DNA from: a virus
Length of the DNA: 64,000 nt
Virus record (IMG/VR): IMGVR_UViG_3300032897_000002
Span: 1 to 64,000 of that record
Direction: 5' to 3' (one strand)
The notes beneath the pieces were generated by a model. It ran no database searches. It saw only the letters and a program-made list of their open reading frames with translations, and was not told where the DNA came from. Made by a program: the position numbers and the translations under genes. Shown here one piece after another: positions 20,475 to 40,057 of this stretch; within the stretch, counting starts at the first letter, position 1, and each line of letters begins with the position of its first letter.

Positions 20475-20780
20475 TTATGCGACTCCCTTGAGCTTGTCTT
20501 CGATCTCCGCCTTCTGCTTGCGCAGAGCTTCGCGCCGCTCTTCAGGAGTGGCAAGCTGCGTCAACCGGGCGTTGATCTTCCGCAGTTCGGCTTCGAGCGC
20601 GTCGGCGTTGCGGACCGTGATCTCCCGGCGCAGGGCCTTCAACTGAATGTCAACAAATTCGGGCTCGGGGATGTTCAGCGCTTCGTATTCGGAACGAATC
20701 GAGCGTCCGAAGGCCGACAACTCCACAAGCTCGTCCAGCGTCAGCCGGTCTTTGTCAAACGACTGATATCTCTCCAGCAT
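20475..20780 (-). CDS. Small coiled-coil protein coupled to the Ro60-like gene
   Basis: AAGGAGG RBS inside the end of the Ro60-like ORF; heptad-rich. Confidence 0.7.
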   Translation of the reverse strand: MLERYQSFDKDRLTLDELVELSAFGRSIRSEYEALNIPEPEFVDIQLKALRREITVRNADALEAELRKINARLTQLATPEERREALRKQKAEIEDKLKGVA

Positions 20781-22353
20781 AGACTGCCTCCTTTCTCTCA
20801 GATTTGAAAACTTCTTTCAGTGTCACAAGCGGCACCGCCATGATCTCGTCCAGAATTGAATAGCGATTAACCCGCATGGTCTGGACCAGATTCGGCAGTG
20901 CATAGTGGTCGATGCTGTCCCCCAGCACGAATTCCTGCAAGTCCAGTTCCGCCAGCTTCATGCTGTCCTGCAAGTCCATGTCGCCCGAGAACCGGAACGA
21001 CGTGGCATTGAGCATCCGAAGTCGCGGAATGAGATGGCTTCGATATTCCGGCCCGCAGCGGTAGAGGTACACCGGAGGCTGCTTCCCGACAAACTCCGCA
21101 TAGCGTGCATAGACCGCCGTAAATGCCGGGTTCTGGTTCTCCTTCGCATCCGATACTACCGCGATGCCATCCACCTCCAGCTTCGCATCAAGCAGATATT
21201 GCAGTGCCACCCCAATTGAGGTGCCCCCATCAGCGCGAACCTTGCTGGTTTCCTTGAGCAGTTCATCGTAGGTCTTTCCGGTTGCGTTGATGAAGCGCGG
21301 AGAGGTGTCGAAGAACACCAAATAGACGTTCCCCTTCACCATTCTGGCCAACGTCGCCGCAACTTGGCGGGAGGCTTCGATGGTGCTGCTCATGCTCCCG
21401 CTTTTGTCGCCCAACACGGCCCAGTTGCCTTCGACCCCTCCGAGCGTCTTGATCTGCTTCTCCTGAAGGGCTTGCAACTTCGCCTTGAGGCCCTCATCCT
21501 CGACCGCATCGGCCGCCACGGTGGTTTTGAAGGTGGCCTTCTTGCTGGTTCCCGCCTTCGCGATTGCGGCTTCGTAGGCGCCACGCAACGCCGGATTCGT
21601 CTTGATGCCGAGTTTTTCCAGCATCTTCGTATTCGTGACCAACTCAGTCGGTGTCATGCCGTTGATGAGCGCCAAAACAAGGTCCGTTTCCTTGGCCATC
21701 TTCCCGAGCGCTCCGACGGCCACCAGAAAAGGAATTTTGCGGCCGATGATCTCCCCGGCTGCCTCTATCGGGGTCATGTCCTTCAAGTGCGTGATGATGT
21801 CGAAGATACTGCCCTTCGGGACCGGCATCTTGTCGGGGTGCTTCTTCGACGTTCCGAACAAGATCGCATCTGCCAGCGGGCACGGCTTTACATGCGCGAG
21901 AGCGTAGAGTGCCTTGAGGGTCTGCCGGTGCTGAACCGCAGCCCGCTCCCAGCGGTGCCAGTTGGCTTCCCGGTTGTGCAGGTAATCACCGATGAGCCCT
22001 TGCAGACTGCGAATCGTCTTGCTGCGCCCCGGCCACGGATGAGTTTTGCGAAGCTCCAGGGCAAACCGGAAAGCCCGCTCCAGTTCACGCGGTCCTTGTA
22101 GCGCCACATGCGCGAGCGAGTTCTCGATGAAATCGCTGTCGGTAAATTCGGGCGAGCAGAGCGAGATGACCGGCAGCGCCACCTTGGAGTCACGGATTTG
22201 GCCTTTCAGTTGATTCCACGCAATGAGGTGGCTCAAAAATTCAGGCTCCCGCCGGGCGGCCTCCTGGGTCACCGGAATGTACTCTTCCAACTTGCCGTGA
22301 GGAGACTTGCTCAGGTCACTCAAAATTTGATTCTTGGTGATGCCGGTTTCCAT
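20755..22353 (-). CDS. Divergent Ro60/Rsr-like TROVE + vWA RNA-binding protein (532 aa)
   Basis: Helical TROVE-like region (EPEFLSHLIAW..GQIRD; LYALAHVKP; GMTPTELVTN). C-terminal vWA MIDAS (LGDKSGSM, GGTSIG, VVSDAKEN). Ro60-like length; Y-RNA-like elements adjacent. Confidence 0.8.
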   Translation of the reverse strand: METGITKNQILSDLSKSPHGKLEEYIPVTQEAARREPEFLSHLIAWNQLKGQIRDSKVALPVISLCSPEFTDSDFIENSLAHVALQGPRELERAFRFALELRKTHPWPGRSKTIRSLQGLIGDYLHNREANWHRWERAAVQHRQTLKALYALAHVKPCPLADAILFGTSKKHPDKMPVPKGSIFDIITHLKDMTPIEAAGEIIGRKIPFLVAVGALGKMAKETDLVLALINGMTPTELVTNTKMLEKLGIKTNPALRGAYEAAIAKAGTSKKATFKTTVAADAVEDEGLKAKLQALQEKQIKTLGGVEGNWAVLGDKSGSMSSTIEASRQVAATLARMVKGNVYLVFFDTSPRFINATGKTYDELLKETSKVRADGGTSIGVALQYLLDAKLEVDGIAVVSDAKENQNPAFTAVYARYAEFVGKQPPVYLYRCGPEYRSHLIPRLRMLNATSFRFSGDMDLQDSMKLAELDLQEFVLGDSIDHYALPNLVQTMRVNRYSILDEIMAVPLVTLKEVFKSERKEAVYAGEISVV

Positions 22354-22370
22354 GGATTACCTCTTTCTAA

Positions 22371-22488
22371 TTGCGGAAAGTTAGGCAGTGTCTACCCTCA
22401 CCAATGGGTGGCACCAGGCAAGCCCGATGGCGGGATTCGAACCAGCATTGCACCTTGCAAGCGCATGTAAACTGCCAGGTATCCGCAA
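22371..22488 (-). ncRNA. Y-RNA-like tRNA mimic Y1 (permuted: T arm, closed acceptor stem, D-like arm)
   Basis: Terminal stem UUGCGGA/UCCGCAA, GGCAGU/ACUGCC, T loop GGUUCGAAUCC, acceptor CAUCGGGC/GCCUGGUG. Confidence 0.8.
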
Positions 22489-22494
22489 ATCTTA

Positions 22495-22610
22495 TGGCCT
22501 CAAGTCGAAGGTGGTATCTTTGCTAAGGCTCAAAAGCCTCCCCCCCGCAAGGATGGTGGAGGGGGGCCGGTACGACCGGCATGGCATGTAACCCTCTTCA
22601 GTAGAGGCCA
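22495..22610 (-). ncRNA. Y-RNA-like element Y2 (degenerate permuted tRNA module)
   Basis: UGGCCUC/GAGGCCA, GAAG/CUUC, shared UACAUG and GACUU; hairpins GCCGG/CCGGC, C-rich/G-rich acceptor stem with ACCA in the loop, AGGCU/AGCCU. Confidence 0.72.
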
Positions 22611-22613
22611 ATC

Positions 22614-23144
22614 TCACAAACTTCTTAGTTCCAAATACCGCTTGGTTGCGTTGAAATCGTAGCCCCGGCGTGCGCACCATGTCTCGGGGTCTTCCGAGCC
22701 TTTGTCTTTATTGCACGGCTTGCAGGCTGTAAGATAATTACTCGCGTTATTTTTTCCGCCCAGTTCCAACGGAACAAAATGGTCGATGGTCATGAGAGAT
22801 TTTCCCATCTTCGCGCCGCAGTATGCGCACTTGAAGCCGTCAGCCGCCCAGATTCGCTGTTGCACGGAACCGGAAATCTCATAGCGCACCTTGCGCTGGA
22901 AAATCTTCGCTGGGCCGATCAGAATCTCTGGATTATCGCTCCGCTGGATGAAGTCAGACCATTCTTCCACCGTCAACTCATACTCGCTTGTTTTGCGGCA
23001 TTCGAATCCCGGCAACATGAGGATGGCCTTTGCTCCTCCGCCTCCAACCACAAGGCCCTCAATCTTCAGGAGTGATCCGATATCGCCGTACTTCACGGGC
23101 CGATTGCGAAATTCCAAGAGATAAAATCTGTCGTCGCTCGCCAT
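22614..23144 (-). CDS. HNH (McrA-type) nuclease with an uncharacterised N-terminal domain
   Basis: CAYCG...TIDHFVPLELGG.N..SNYLTACKPCNKDK; sandwiched between Y-RNA-like units. Confidence 0.88.
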   Translation of the reverse strand: MASDDRFYLLEFRNRPVKYGDIGSLLKIEGLVVGGGGAKAILMLPGFECRKTSEYELTVEEWSDFIQRSDNPEILIGPAKIFQRKVRYEISGSVQQRIWAADGFKCAYCGAKMGKSLMTIDHFVPLELGGKNNASNYLTACKPCNKDKGSEDPETWCARRGYDFNATKRYLELRSL

Positions 23145-23156
23145 GGTCAATCCTAA

Positions 23157-23290
23157 TTGGGTGCAAGTCGCTGCGGGTTCATTAAGCGCTCTACCACTGA
23201 GCTAATCCCCCGTATGGCTGGGGGATGTTGGATTCGAACCAACGACCTCTTCCTTAGAAGGAAGCATGTAACCGCCTCAGTAGCACCCAA
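23157..23290 (-). ncRNA. Y-RNA-like (YrlA-type) tRNA mimic Y3
   Basis: UUGGGUGC/GCACCCAA; T arm GUUGG-UUCGAAU-CCAAC; acceptor AUCCCCC/GGGGGAU closed by loop AGCCAUAC; D arm UA-GCUC-AGUGGUA-GAGC. The order T, acceptor, D is circularly permuted. Confidence 0.87.
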
Positions 23291-23295
23291 ACTTT

Positions 23296-23407
23296 ATCCC
23301 GGTAAGTCGGCCAGCTTTTACTTCATGGTTGGAATTGAACCAACTCCCACTGAGCCAAGTCAGTTGCTCACCAAAGAGCTTCATGTACGCTGTCCCATAA
23401 CCGGGAA
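23296..23407 (-). ncRNA. Y-RNA-like element Y4 with a non-permuted tRNA module
   Basis: UCCCGGU/ACCGGGA; D arm GCUC/GAGC; anticodon-like arm ACUGA-CUUGGC-UCAGU; T arm GUUGG-UUCAAUU-CCAAC; CAUG/CAUG stem. Confidence 0.78.
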
Positions 23408-23424
23408 TCTCATATCGAAGGTAC

Positions 23425-23453
23425 AGCCTACGATTGTTCCAAGCGGTTGTCAA
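23425..23453 (-). promoter_or_regulatory. Sigma70 promoter of the Y-RNA/HNH/Ro60 cassette
   Basis: TTGACA-17 nt-TAGGCT; predicted start about 10 nt upstream of Y4. Confidence 0.7.
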
Positions 23454-23480
23454 CAACTTTTTTCAATTATTTTTTCAACT

Positions 23481-23505
23481 AAAAACCCCGGCTGCGGAGC
23501 CGGGG
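23481..23505 (-). terminator. Intrinsic terminator insulating the cassette from scaffold read-through
   Basis: CCCCGGCU-CCGC-AGCCGGGG followed by UUUUU. Confidence 0.75.
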
Positions 23506-23664
23506 CGGAAGGGAAAAATGGACGGCTAAAGAGTAGCGCGGGAAGCTCGATTTTGCAAGATATTTCGCTTCTTGTTCGCCCTGCCGTGTTAGAATAGTTC
23601 GAGCGGCTGAAGTGCATCAACACTCACAGCCGCCCTTGACTCAACGACCTGGAAGGAGGCCGTC

Positions 23665-24198
23665 ATGCCCGAAGAAAATCTTACCACAACTCCAGAGATT
23701 TGGAAGCCCGTTGTTGGCTATGAGGGATATTACGAAGTTTCAAACAAGGGAAGGGTGAAGCGCGTTGGGCACCGAAAACATACGCGAATAGGTAGAATTA
23801 TAAAACCGTGGTTAAGCCGTGGATACTGCCAAGTACGATTATCAAGGGACGGAAATTTAATTGCGCGTCTTGCCCATCAACTTGTCATGGAGGCTTTTGT
23901 TGGCCCCCGCCCAGAGAAACATGAAGTAAATCATATCAATGGCATTAAGACAGATAATATATGGCCTGAGAATCTTGAATATGTTACAAAAAGTCAAAAT
24001 CAATTACACGCCTCAGACCTCGGTTTGATGCACCGGGGAGAAGATCACCACAAGGCAAAACTTACAGAGGAGCAGGTTAAAGAAATTATTGTCGCCGAAG
24101 GATCGCATTCGCAAATCGCGATAAAGTATGGCATCAGCCGAGCCATGATTTCATACATTAAACGAGGCAAATCATGGCGTCATATTCCGCGTCCATAG
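23665..24198 (+). CDS. NUMOD4-HNH homing endonuclease
   Basis: EIWKPVVGYEGYYEVSNKGRVK (NUMOD4), AHQLVMEAFVG...VNHINGIKTDN...NLEY (HNH), C-terminal HTH. Confidence 0.92.
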   Translation: MPEENLTTTPEIWKPVVGYEGYYEVSNKGRVKRVGHRKHTRIGRIIKPWLSRGYCQVRLSRDGNLIARLAHQLVMEAFVGPRPEKHEVNHINGIKTDNIWPENLEYVTKSQNQLHASDLGLMHRGEDHHKAKLTEEQVKEIIVAEGSHSQIAIKYGISRAMISYIKRGKSWRHIPRP

Positions 24199-38910: not shown

Positions 38911-39151
38911 AAGTTTCCTCCTTGCGAATTGCAGCGGATTGGGCCGGAAATGAGTCAGCGGGTTCTTCGGCAATTCAACTTTGACTATAGACACAGCTAC
39001 CCTCACTGGTATAGATTAGAAACCAGCTAGGGCAGCGCTCCGGTTGATTGCCTTCAACCCCTTGCGCGACCACTCCGAGGATTTCCAGTCAAGTGAATCG
39101 TAACAGCTTTCGGGTCACACCGAAAGCTTTTACATTTCAAACTGAACTTTG

Positions 39152-39183
39152 TGCTTGACAAGCAATTATTCGTCAAGCATAAT
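39152..39183 (+). promoter_or_regulatory. Transposase promoter with overlapping palindromic operator
   Basis: TTGACA-17 nt-CATAAT; inverted repeat TGCTTGAC...GTCAAGCA; ATG 7 nt after the -10. Confidence 0.65.
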
Positions 39184-39190
39184 ATTCAGT

Positions 39191-40057
39191 ATGAACCGAC
39201 TACCCATTGAAGACCGCGCACGAATAATTGGAATGTTAATTGAGGGAATGAGCCTCCGCGCCACCAGTCGGCTGGCCGATGTTTCGATTAATACTGTCAC
39301 AAAACTTCTAGTAGAAGTTGGCATCGCATCTGCCGAATATCAGGACCGGACCCTGCGCAAACTCAAGTGCAAAAGGATTCAATGCGACGAGATTTGGGCG
39401 TTTGTCTACGCCAAAGAGAAGAACGTCCCCAGTAAATTGAAAGGCAAGTTTGGCTTCGGAGATGTCTGGACCTGGACAGCGATTGACGCTGACACCAAAC
39501 TGGTTCCCTCCTTCATGGTAGGCAACCGCGACGCGCAGACCGCGAACATCTTCATTGACGATCTCAAAAGCCGACTAGCGAACCGCGTGCAACTCACCAC
39601 CGATGGCCTCAAGGTTTACTTGGAAGCGGTTGAGGGCGCATTCGGAGCTGACATCGACTACGCCCAACTGGTAAAGATTTATGGTGCCACGCAGGAGGAA
39701 GTACGGTACTCGCCTGCCGAATGCTTGGGCTGCGAAACCAAACGAGTCCAGGGCCATCCTGATCCCAAACACATTTCGACAAGTTATGTTGAACGCCAGA
39801 ATCTCACGATGCGAATGGGGATGCGCCGCTTCACTCGCCTGACTAACGCCTTCTCAAAGAAAGTCGAGAACCACGCCTACCAGGTGGCCCTTCACTTCAT
39901 GTACTACAATTTCGCCAGAATCCACCAGACCTTGCGATGCACTCCGGCAATGGAAGCTGGAGTATCCGACCATGTTTGGAGTATCAAGGAAATCGCGGCG
40001 CTCCTGCCAGAGCCGACATTCGGACCGCGCGGACCGTATAGGAAGAGGGATAAATGA
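39191..40057 (+). CDS. IS1-family-like DDE transposase
   Basis: N-terminal HTH (EGMSLRATSRLADVSINTV); IQCDEIWAFV, QLTTDG, STSYVERQNLTMRMGMRRFTRLTNAFSKK. Confidence 0.9.
   Translation: MNRLPIEDRARIIGMLIEGMSLRATSRLADVSINTVTKLLVEVGIASAEYQDRTLRKLKCKRIQCDEIWAFVYAKEKNVPSKLKGKFGFGDVWTWTAIDADTKLVPSFMVGNRDAQTANIFIDDLKSRLANRVQLTTDGLKVYLEAVEGAFGADIDYAQLVKIYGATQEEVRYSPAECLGCETKRVQGHPDPKHISTSYVERQNLTMRMGMRRFTRLTNAFSKKVENHAYQVALHFMYYNFARIHQTLRCTPAMEAGVSDHVWSIKEIAALLPEPTFGPRGPYRKRDK

What the first reader, a model, noticed from the sequence alone, without database searches (positions are those of the whole stretch)
23296..23407. Y4 carries a non-permuted tRNA (D, anticodon, T) with a Pro(UGG)-like loop on the Y stem
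Seen: Y1-Y3 have the permuted order (T arm, closed acceptor, D arm). Y4 instead reads D arm, anticodon arm ACUGA-CUUGGC-UCAGU, GGGA, T arm, with a CAUG/CAUG pseudo-acceptor stem continuing into the Y stem. The 6-nt loop CU-UGG-C resembles a tRNA-Pro(UGG) loop one base short. Inference: two different tRNA-mimic topologies on the same scaffold, one exposing an anticodon-like loop that could bait anticodon nucleases.
Basis: partly seen in the sequence, partly recalled or inferred. Interest (0 to 1): 0.72.

Follow-up and report, generated by a model that had tools for sequence, protein, structure and literature searches.

The report
Phage Ro60 partner RNA holding tRNA look-alike
This 110-base stretch of an uncultured wetland phage encodes a small RNA whose conserved two-stem "handle" clamps a trimmed, normally ordered tRNA look-alike, one of four partner RNAs beside a Ro60-like ring protein; the design recurs in most related phages, but the "anticodon" changes freely, so it imitates tRNA shape and does not read codons.

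Summary
On the minus strand at 23297-23406, a cloverleaf in normal order (D arm, anticodon arm with a 6-nt loop CUUGGC, GGGA, T arm) sits on a CAUG/CAUG pseudo-acceptor. That continues into the same two-stem handle that Y1-Y3 carry.

It is not chance. A covariance model of such units finds one in 52 of 63 related phage loci (43 of 52 distinct) upstream of a homologous gene. All six helices covary: 94.9% of cells pair and 33 of 34 pairs show compensatory changes. The gene folds as Ro60, although sequence searches see only the vWA part.

- Two topologies on one handle: yes.
- The permuted units, including Y3 and probably Y1, also carry an anticodon-like hairpin.
- "Pro(UGG)-like" is not supported. 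In relatives the triplet is hypervariable (22 anticodons, 10 of 43 unnatural) and 6-nt loops are sporadic.

Y4 is a reduced member: no U8, A14 or A21, a 4-bp acceptor and no CCA.

Best reading: a Y-RNA-type tRNA-shape mimic docked on the Ro60-like protein. The nuclease-bait idea remains untested.

This scan has reported the same family on other phage DNA. I found no published description.

The parts
23297..23406 (-). Y4: complete handle RNA carrying a tRNA look-alike in normal order
   Evidence: R1 76.2 bits over model positions 1-128; RNAfold cloverleaf on the handle
23400..23406 (-). Y4 outer stem, 5' strand (UCCCGGU); pairs with 23297-23303
   Evidence: Sequence; helix 1 covaries in 8 of 8 pairs across 49 relatives
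23304..23309 (-). CGACUU loop motif of the handle, opposite UAU(G) 23396-23399; proposed docking site for the Ro60-like protein
   Evidence: Present in Y4, Y3 and Y2; UAACUU in Y1. The triplet after CGA is locus-specific: modal share 0.738 against 0.50 in shuffles, 0 of 5000
23382..23387 (-). UACAUG handle motif; its CAUG pairs with CAUG 23324-23327 as a 4-bp pseudo-acceptor
   Evidence: Sequence; UACAYG or a one-base variant in 48 of the 49 distinct normal-order units
23366..23379 (-). D arm GCUC-UUUGGU-GAGC (keeps G18 G19; lacks A14 and A21; preceded by AA instead of UA)
   Evidence: Rfam tRNA alignment; family comparison
23349..23364 (-). Anticodon-like arm ACUGA-CUUGGC-UCAGU, loop 23354-23359 (6 nt)
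   Evidence: ARAGORN; helix 5 is 98% paired and all 5 pairs covary in relatives
23328..23344 (-). T arm GUUGG-UUCAAUU-CCAAC
   Evidence: helix 6 is 99.2% paired
23158..23289 (-). Y3: same handle; permuted order (anticodon-like hairpin, variable region, T arm, acceptor closed by a loop holding GCCA, D arm)
   Evidence: YrlA 35 bits; member of alignment A6, whose helices covary
22614..23144 (-). HNH-domain protein gene (176 aa) between Y3 and Y2; a recurrent member of the cassette
   Evidence: Pfam HNH_5 3.1e-11; homologs at 48-72% identity over most or all of their length in 23 of 52 distinct loci (two of them incomplete), within the array or just before the Ro gene
22495..22610 (-). Y2: same handle, degenerate permuted cargo (closed G/C-rich stem with ACCA in its loop)
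22371..22488 (-). Y1: same handle (UAACUU variant); hairpin, then T arm, closed acceptor, D-like arm
   Evidence: YrlA 18.8 bits, E 2
20755..22353 (-). Ro60-like ring protein (532 aa; HEAT-like repeats plus vWA with DxSxS)
   Evidence: AF2 pLDDT 79; Foldseek ranks 1-13 are all Ro60/TROVE, prob 1.0, TM 0.46-0.62; D316, S318 and S320 invariant
23425..23453 (-). Promoter-like TTGACA-17-TAGGCT upstream of Y4
   Evidence: Read from the sequence. The consensus scan did not list it because the -10 hexamer matches only 3 of 6
23485..23506 (-). Terminator-like hairpin plus U run that closes the upstream unit

Best explanation
Y4 is a phage Y-RNA-type partner RNA.

Its two-stem handle consists of an outer stem, the loop UAU/CGACUU, a second stem and UACAUG. 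I infer that the handle docks on the Ro60-like ring protein encoded 950 bases downstream in the same minus-strand cassette.

The handle clamps both ends of a tRNA-shaped domain written in the natural order. The elbow and the anticodon arm therefore point away from the protein, while the acceptor end is buried.

I infer that this domain acts by shape. It would engage a host protein that recognises tRNA, either as a tether or as a decoy. Known Ro60/Y-RNA particles tether PNPase in this way.

The anticodon letters are not what is selected. Y4 is a trimmed copy of the design.

Shown: the fold, its conservation, the linkage to the Ro60-like gene, and the free anticodon.
Inferred: binding to the protein, and the partner on the tRNA side.
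For: - Cloverleaf on the handle.
- The same architecture is found in 52 of 63 loci (43 of 52 distinct) upstream of a homolog of the 532-aa protein. It also occurs twice (81.7 and 77.7 bits) beside a 30%-identical homolog in a 595-kb uncultured phage.
- Covariation across 49 distinct sequences: 94.9% of cells paired, 33 of 34 pairs with double changes, 0 of 500 shuffles as high, and slid partners pair at 33-43%.
- The tRNA tertiary pair 15-48 covaries: U-A 17, A-U 13, G-C 3 of 49; Fisher 5e-6, uncorrected for relatedness.
- The protein has the Ro60 fold.
- The handle loop triplet is uniform within a locus and differs between loci, as expected if each protein reads its own RNAs.
- The anticodon is hypervariable while U33 (38 of 43), A37 (35 of 43) and A38 (37 of 43) are kept. 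Among close pairs the triplet columns differ in 57-68%, against 14% for other unpaired core columns.
- Precedents, from passages I read: YrlA is a Ro60-bound tRNA mimic, and D. radiodurans Yrn1 is modelled in the same orientation with a 6-nt 'anticodon loop' (PMC4201824). Phage phiLo Ro60 binds two phage Y-like RNAs and host PNPase (PMC12135203).
Against: - No expression or binding data exist; no RNA run holds the stretch.
- The protein is not recognisable as TROVE by sequence. Pfam, NCBIfam and PDB sequence searches see only the vWA domain or nothing.
- The bacterial Ro60-binding motif GNCGAAN0-1G lies on the 5' strand of YrlA. Here the conserved CGACUU lies on the 3' strand, so docking is by analogy only.
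- Y4 scores lowest but two among units of its main class. It lacks the U8-A14-A21 set and has a 6-nt loop, a 4-nt variable region and a 4-bp acceptor. It could be a decaying copy.
- Alignment A5 was fitted to the model's structure, which favours pairing counts.
Confidence: 0.72

Rival explanations
1. Anticodon-nuclease bait: the exposed loop is cut or bound in place of a host tRNA by a defence nuclease. The fast-changing triplet would then record an arms race.
For: - The anticodon arm is the most exposed part of this wiring.
- The triplet changes 4-5 times faster than other unpaired core positions, while the stem, U33 and A37 are kept.
- Phages of this group often carry the cassette inside tRNA gene clusters.
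Against: - 10 of 43 triplets are stop or A34 anticodons with no host counterpart. That is close to what random triplets would give (the set of natural anticodons is my own knowledge).
- G34 is nearly absent (2 of 43).
- UUU(Lys) and GUA(Tyr), the anticodons of tRNAs that I recall as targets of anticodon nucleases, never occur.
- Loop length is not held: lengths of 5, 6, 8 and 13 nt occur in 6 of 49.
- Y4's own loop has 6 nt.
Confidence: 0.12
2. Y4 is a decaying, no longer functional copy of the normal-order unit, kept only as the first element of the transcript.
For: - 76.2 bits, against 85-122 for most units.
- Several tRNA features are lost together: U8 changed, A14, A21 and one variable-loop base missing, loop one base short, acceptor 4 bp, and no mini-hairpin or CCA.
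Against: - All four stems and both handle stems are intact, with no mismatch in the outer stem, D, anticodon or T stems.
- U8, A14 and A21 form one base triple in tRNA (my own knowledge). Their joint loss looks like a compact redesign, not random decay.
- A compact subclass with similar traits recurs in 6 other loci.
Confidence: 0.1
3. A working tRNA, or a tRNA precursor whose leader and trailer happen to pair.
For: - It passes the Rfam tRNA gathering score.
- About ten relatives keep a 7-bp acceptor followed by NCCA.
- M. smegmatis YrlA is cut by RNase P and receives CCA (PMC4201824).
Against: - For Y4: a 6-nt loop, a 4-bp acceptor, no discriminator or CCA, and no U8.
- For the family: one body carries 22 anticodons, including 'Ser' anticodons without a long variable arm, and stop and A34 anticodons.
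- The handle is shared with permuted and non-tRNA cargos.
Confidence: 0.02

Closest known systems
YrlA, the tRNA-like Y RNA bound by bacterial and mycobacteriophage Ro60/Rsr (Rfam RF02553; Chen et al. 2014, PMC4201824; Wang et al. 2018 preprint 10.1101/312249; passages read)
   Same: - Encoded next to a Ro60-fold gene.
- The ends pair into a stem with a conserved loop.
- The interior mimics tRNA with T and D arms.
- Several RNAs per locus.
   Different: - YrlA is permuted (T arm, closed acceptor, D arm) and 'lacks the anticodon loop'. Y4 has the natural order and a full anticodon arm.
- Y4 gives no YrlA hit; Y3 reaches only 35 of the 69 bits needed.
- The conserved loop motif is on the 3' strand (CGACUU), not the 5' strand (GNCGAA).
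D. radiodurans Yrn1 (Chen et al. 2014, PMC4201824, passages read)
   Same: Modelled with the T and D elements in the same orientation relative to the RNA ends, and with an 'anticodon arm' of 5 bp closed by a 6-nt loop, as in Y4. It tethers Ro60 to PNPase.
   Different: - Per the paper, Yrn1 has no clear D arm and no variable region. Y4 has all four arms and passes a tRNA model.
- I made no sequence comparison, because no Yrn1 sequence was at hand.
Thermus phage phiLo Ro60 with Yrl1/Yrl2 (PMC12135203, passages read; PDB 9kop, 9l5y)
   Same: A phage Ro60 with phage-encoded Y-like RNAs upstream of the gene. These structures are among the top fold matches of the window's protein (ranks 1, 4 and 5).
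   Different: phiLo's RNAs are described as stem-bulge-stem with a CGAA motif. tRNA mimicry is not mentioned in the passages I read.
Canonical tRNA (Rfam RF00005)
   Same: Cloverleaf order, G18G19, a T loop of UUCAAUU type, and 15-48 covariation in the family.
   Different: A 6-nt loop, a 4-bp acceptor buried in the handle, no CCA, no U8/A14/A21, and an anticodon that is not conserved.
Circularly permuted tRNA genes of red algae and archaea (as discussed in 10.1101/312249)
   Same: tRNA parts written in rotated order with a closed acceptor. This matches the sibling units Y1-Y3, not Y4.
   Different: Those are matured into working tRNAs by the splicing endonuclease. Here several break points and a non-permuted form share one handle next to a Ro60-like gene.

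Membership tests
Ro60-associated Y RNA (functional class) | Encoded beside a Ro60/TROVE-vWA gene | tested here: met
   The 532-aa ORF 950 nt downstream folds as Ro60. The linkage holds in 52 of 63 loci.
Ro60-associated Y RNA (functional class) | 5' and 3' ends pair into a stem interrupted by a conserved loop or bulge | tested here: met
   The outer and second stems covary in 8 of 8 and 7 of 7 pairs. The UAY/CGACUU loop is conserved.
Ro60-associated Y RNA (functional class) | Physical binding to Ro60 | not testable with these tools
   The only indirect evidence is that variants of the loop motif are locus-specific.
YrlA (RF02553) | Reaches the Rfam gathering score (69 bits) | tested here: not met
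   No YrlA hit on Y4. Y3 scores 35 bits and Y1 18.8 bits.
YrlA (RF02553) | Order T arm, closed acceptor, D arm; no anticodon loop | tested here: not met
   Y4 reads D arm, anticodon arm, T arm.
YrlA (RF02553) | GNCGAAN0-1G motif on the 5' strand of the stem | tested here: not met
   The 5' strand has UAU(G). The CGA-containing motif is on the 3' strand. The motif definition comes from PMC4201824.
tRNA (RF00005) | Cloverleaf scoring above gathering | tested here: met
   34.0 bits against 29 in E-value mode. It was not listed in gathering mode.
tRNA (RF00005) | 7-nt anticodon loop | tested here: not met
   The loop is CUUGGC, 6 nt.
tRNA (RF00005) | 7-bp acceptor with free discriminator and CCA | tested here: not met
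   4-bp CAUG/CAUG, no CCA, and the ends continue into the handle.
Normal-order handle-clamped tRNA mimic (family defined here by model R1) | Full-length match to R1 well above ordinary tRNAs | tested here: met
   76.2 bits over positions 1-128. With one exception, ordinary tRNAs of the same loci score 62 bits or less, mostly as local matches. The exception is L042:3742-3856, an ordinary-looking tRNA at 63.2 bits.

The most novel reading that the evidence does not exclude
Y4 and its siblings form a phage 'tRNA-shape display' particle. It would combine a very diverged Ro60 ring, a conserved HNH nuclease and a set of handle RNAs. The RNAs present whole tRNA look-alikes wired in at least three ways: ends at the acceptor, ends in the anticodon stem, or ends in the variable region. 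The particle would intercept or redirect host enzymes that act on tRNA during infection, for example defence nucleases or PNPase. The freely changing anticodon would then be the trace of an arms race.
Probability: 0.15. Interest if true: 0.85.

Novelty: new variant of a known kind. Interest (0 to 1): 0.6.

Why it matters
Y RNAs that mimic tRNA are known only in the permuted, anticodon-less YrlA form, and in the partial Yrn1 form. Here a whole tRNA shape, anticodon arm included, is mounted on a Ro60-type handle. The same handle carries differently rotated tRNA shapes in one operon.

The family is large: more than 1,100 homologs of the protein in metagenomes. It is absent from Rfam at gathering score and almost absent from deposited phage genomes, with 1 of 50,697 records.

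It offers three things:
- a natural set of 'rewired' tRNAs for asking which face of tRNA a partner reads;
- a testable case of protein-RNA co-variation, between the handle loop and its cognate Ro60;
- a warning for annotation, because tRNA finders call many of these units ordinary tRNAs with odd anticodons.

Tried and rejected
- **Sequence-level identification of the protein as TROVE.** This failed with Pfam, NCBIfam, PDB phmmer and a PDB profile search. Only the fold search worked.
- **Expression.** No RNA holder is listed for 22300-23520. I did not use read laying, since only DNA contigs were on offer.
- **Promoter.** TTGACA-17-TAGGCT is visible in the sequence, but the consensus scan does not list it. 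I treat it as weak.
- **Loop-loop pairing.** I considered pairing between Y4's loop UGGC and the GCCA in the loop that closes Y3's acceptor, by analogy with the T-box UGGN-NCCA contact (recalled).
  - A locus-level co-occurrence test was uninformative because the hairpin scan is too noisy: 43 both, 10 UGG only, 1 CCA only, Fisher p = 1.
  - By eye, the fourth base matched the neighbouring NCCA in only about 3 of 11 loci.
  - I do not consider this idea supported.
- **Assigning Y4 to the compact subclass.** This subclass has a 5-bp D stem, a short variable region and YUGG(A/C) loops. The assignment is ambiguous, because Y4's core is also 87-88% identical to main-class units of L014 and L030.
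- **The regex/stem scan for handles.** It produces false positives in coding DNA. I used it only for coordinates and for the loop-motif test, which still contains some of that noise.
- **N-terminal domain of the HNH protein.** The model is poor there (pLDDT below 50 for residues 1-25 and 70-90). The fold search recovered only the HNH part, of Cas9-HNH/Gme-HNH/McrA type.
- **The Dictyostelium Class I RNA lead** from earlier scan notes. The passages I read in PMC7919456 do not spell out the 11-nt motif, so I did not test it.
- **Reviews not held.** PMC10870794 and PMC6047535 are not held and may discuss Yrn1 or phage Y RNAs further. Supplements of Chen et al. 2014 (lists of phage YrlA RNAs) were not seen.
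- **Not-in-print claim.** It rests on searches only.
- **ARAGORN coverage.** It was run on 60 of the 63 loci.

Full report
**1. What is at the coordinates**

Read on the minus strand, 23406-23297 consists of the following elements, in order:
- a 7-bp outer stem, UCCCGGU with ACCGGGA;
- an asymmetric internal loop, UAU(G) opposite CGACUU;
- a second stem, GG-A-CAGC with GCUG-G-CC;
- the hexamer UACAUG, whose CAUG pairs with a downstream CAUG;
- inside that 4-bp pseudo-acceptor: AA, a D arm (GCUC-UUUGGU-GAGC), A, an anticodon-type arm (ACUGA-CUUGGC-UCAGU), GGGA and a T arm (GUUGG-UUCAAUU-CCAAC).

Four tools agree:
- ARAGORN makes its only call in the window here: 23320-23388, 'tRNA-???', a two-base anticodon.
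- The Rfam tRNA model scores 34.0 bits, above its gathering score of 29, in E-value mode. The default gathering run listed nothing in the window.
- RNAfold's minimum-energy structure is this cloverleaf on the handle, with z about -2.0 to -2.6.
- Model R1 scores it 76.2 bits.

**2. The surroundings**

The unit is first in a minus-strand cassette:
- a terminator-like hairpin at 23506-23485;
- a TTGACA-17-TAGGCT that is visible but too weak for the scan tool;
- Y4, then Y3 (23158-23289);
- an HNH-domain ORF (22614-23144);
- Y2 (22495-22610) and Y1 (22371-22488);
- a 532-aa ORF (20755-22353).

All four RNAs share the handle: outer stem, YAC-type loop, second stem, UACAUG ... second stem', (C/U)(G/A)ACUU, outer stem'.

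Sequence searches on the 532-aa protein see only a borderline vWA domain and phrog_850 'RNA-binding protein'. They find nothing in NCBIfam or among PDB sequences. An AlphaFold model built on 20 homologs (pLDDT 79) matches Ro60/TROVE structures over its whole length. Foldseek ranks 1-13 are all Ro60: phage phiLo, human, Xenopus and Deinococcus, with prob 1.0, TM 0.46-0.62 and about 16% identity. The MIDAS residues D316, S318 and S320 are invariant.

The genome is an 81.5-kb virus record, estimated 87% complete. It has no other match to my model, and ARAGORN calls no ordinary tRNA in the 64-kb window.

**3. Is the normal-order unit conserved?**

The protein has more than 1,100 metagenomic homologs. 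I fetched 63 viral loci. ARAGORN (60 of 63 loci) calls an isolated 'tRNA' with odd anticodons a few hundred bases upstream of the gene in many of them. The flanks of these calls carry the same handle.

I aligned 25 such units (A3), wrote the structure by hand and built model R1. The search results were as follows:
- Searching all loci gives 59 full-length hits at 63 bits or more. These are 49 distinct sequences, in 52 of 63 loci and in 43 of 52 distinct loci.
- Of the 11 loci without a hit, three have fewer than 460 bases upstream of the gene. Two have weaker hits (57.6 and 48.9 bits). Six have none at that level.
- Ordinary tRNAs of the same loci score 62 bits or less, mostly as local matches.
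- One hit at 63.2 bits (L042:3742-3856) lacks UACAYG and looks like an ordinary tRNA, so the cut-off is not perfectly clean.

On the 49 sequences, 94.9% of cells pair and 33 of 34 pairs show changes on both sides. No shuffle of 500 reaches any of the measures, and sliding the partners drops pairing to 33-43%. Every helix covaries: outer stem, second stem, acceptor, D, anticodon and T. A caveat is that this alignment is fitted to the model.

The tRNA tertiary pair 15-48 also covaries: U-A 17, A-U 13, G-C 3 of 49; Fisher 5e-6, uncorrected for relatedness.

A 595-kb uncultured phage is the only record among 50,697 deposited phage genomes with a homolog (30% identity). It has two such units upstream of that gene, at 81.7 and 77.7 bits.

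**4. How Y4 compares with its relatives**

Most units keep U8-A9, A14, A21, a 5-nt variable region and a 7-nt loop. At the acceptor end they take one of two forms:
- a 7-bp acceptor, followed in about ten units by NCCA;
- a 3-5-bp pseudo-acceptor made by UACAUG itself, plus a GNRA-capped mini-hairpin.

Y4 is of the short kind but lacks the mini-hairpin. It also has AA for U8-A9, lacks A14, A21 and one variable-loop base, and has a 6-nt loop. It scores 76 bits, against 85-122 for most units. Every stem is nevertheless intact.

Six other loci have a compact subclass with a short variable region, a D loop without A14/A21-type spacing, and loops of the form C-N-Y-U-G-G-(A/C). Y4's CUUGGC fits that loop class with one base missing. 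In those 7-nt loops UGG sits at positions 35-37, so the triplet is YUG, not UGG. Y4's core is also 87-88% identical to two main-class units, so I leave the subclass open.

**5. The anticodon**

- Among 43 units with 7-nt loops there are 22 different triplets.
- Ten of the 43 are stop anticodons or A34 anticodons other than ACG.
- G34 occurs twice.
- U33 (38 of 43), A37 (35 of 43) and A38 (37 of 43) are kept.
- Loop lengths of 5, 6, 8 or 13 nt occur in 6 of 49.
- Among 25 pairs at least 85% identical in the rest of the tRNA core, the three anticodon columns differ in 57-68%. Other unpaired core columns differ in 14% and paired columns in 11%. Only 3 of 25 pairs share the triplet.
- The same body carries 'Ser' anticodons without a long variable arm.

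The units therefore imitate tRNA shape, and I found no sign that they imitate any particular tRNA. This removes the basis for 'Pro-like'. It also weakens a sequence-specific bait model without excluding it.

**6. The sibling wirings**

The same handle carries other cargos.
- Eighteen units of the class that includes Y3 (A6, a MAFFT alignment not fitted to a model; the structure is mine) pair in 91.6% of cells. Double changes occur in 29 of 36 pairs, with 0 of 500 shuffles as high.
- Besides the T arm, closed acceptor and D arm, these units have two further elements. One is a local hairpin right after UACAUG (77% paired, 2 of 3 pairs with compensatory changes). The other is a 2-bp helix between the bases before the variable region and those after the D arm (CG 10, AU 4, GC 1, UA 1). 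Together these rebuild an anticodon stem-loop whose 5' strand is broken at about position 28/29.
- Their loops again look like anticodon loops, for example CUUGUAA, CUUCUAA and AUUCCAA.
- A third wiring (T arm, closed acceptor, D arm, anticodon arm, mini-hairpin) occurs in L026, L046, L052 and L060. Some units carry only small hairpins.

What differs is where the chain ends lie, and so which end of the L-shape is tied to the handle.

**7. The handle as docking site (inference)**

The three bases after CGA in the 3' loop are nearly uniform within a locus. They differ between loci: CUU, CUC, CUA, UCU, CAC, AUC. In 38 loci with three or more units, the modal share is 0.738, against 0.50 in shuffles (0 of 5000 as high). 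Some false-positive units were still in the set. The stems around the loop differ freely. This is what a protein-specific contact would produce, although recent duplication within loci could contribute.

**8. Mechanism**

I commit to a Y-RNA-type adaptor. The handle sits on the Ro60-like ring, and the tRNA-shaped cargo engages a tRNA-recognising partner by shape. Known precedents are:
- YrlA as a tRNA mimic on Ro60, and Yrn1 tethering PNPase (PMC4201824);
- phage phiLo Ro60 forming complexes with its Y-like RNAs and host PNPase (PMC12135203).

Which partner is engaged, and whether the outcome is recruitment or sequestration, is not shown. The rivals (nuclease bait, decayed copy, working tRNA) are weighed in their own sections.

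**9. Novelty**

In the passages I read, YrlA 'lacks the anticodon loop' and a free CCA end (10.1101/312249), and Yrn1's resemblance to tRNA is partial. My five literature searches found no description of a Ro60-linked RNA with a complete normal-order cloverleaf, or of several wirings on one handle. A 2026 preprint on bacterial tRNA mimics (abstract and outline read) concerns other families.

Earlier notes of this scan describe the same family on other phage genomes. They include a whole tRNA-Pro look-alike inside a handle and the free anticodon. My results agree with them and were obtained independently on this window and its relatives. I rate it a new variant of a known kind.

Noticed in passing
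window 22614-23144 (-); e.g. L012:2072-2602, L014:3415-3951: The HNH-domain ORF between Y3 and Y2 is not a stray homing endonuclease. Homologs at 48-72% identity over most or all of their length lie within the RNA array or directly before the Ro60-like gene in 23 of 52 distinct loci; in two of these the homolog is split or cut off (L029, L059). The zinc cysteines, D121-H122 and N145 are invariant, and there is a conserved N-terminal domain of about 100 aa with unknown fold. It may be a third component of the particle.
   Followed up: partly
L001-L063 arrays; window 23304-23309, 23166-23171, 22503-22508, 22379-22384: The handle's 3' loop motif (CGA + 3 bases) is uniform within a locus but differs between loci (CUU, CUC, CUA, UCU, CAC, AUC). 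This suggests co-variation with the cognate Ro60-like protein.
   Followed up: partly
e.g. window 23220-23240 (Y3), L028:2895, L030:2225, L008:3829, L024:3697: In many permuted units the T arm is followed by a 7-nt acceptor strand and then NCCA inside the loop that closes the acceptor. About ten normal-order units likewise keep a 7-bp acceptor plus NCCA. An encoded CCA therefore seems to be selected even where it is not a free end.
   Followed up: partly
L026:2863-3000, L060:3707-3844, L046:3692-3826, L052:3691-3844: A third wiring occurs on the same handle: T arm, closed acceptor, D arm, anticodon arm, mini-hairpin. The chain ends lie in the variable-region position.
   Followed up: no
L001-L060: ARAGORN calls many handle-clamped units ordinary tRNAs, for example Ile-AAU, Asp-AUC, Ser-UGA with a short variable arm, and 'SeC' or 'Stop'. 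Such calls in phage genomes may inflate tRNA and suppressor-tRNA counts.
   Followed up: partly
window 23665-24198 (+): A NUMOD4 + HNH_3 homing-endonuclease-type ORF lies on the opposite strand just upstream of the cassette. It is distinct from the cassette's own HNH protein.
   Followed up: no
window 39149-40057 (+): An ORF has weak IS1/IS240-type DDE transposase and HTH matches inside the phage genome.
   Followed up: no
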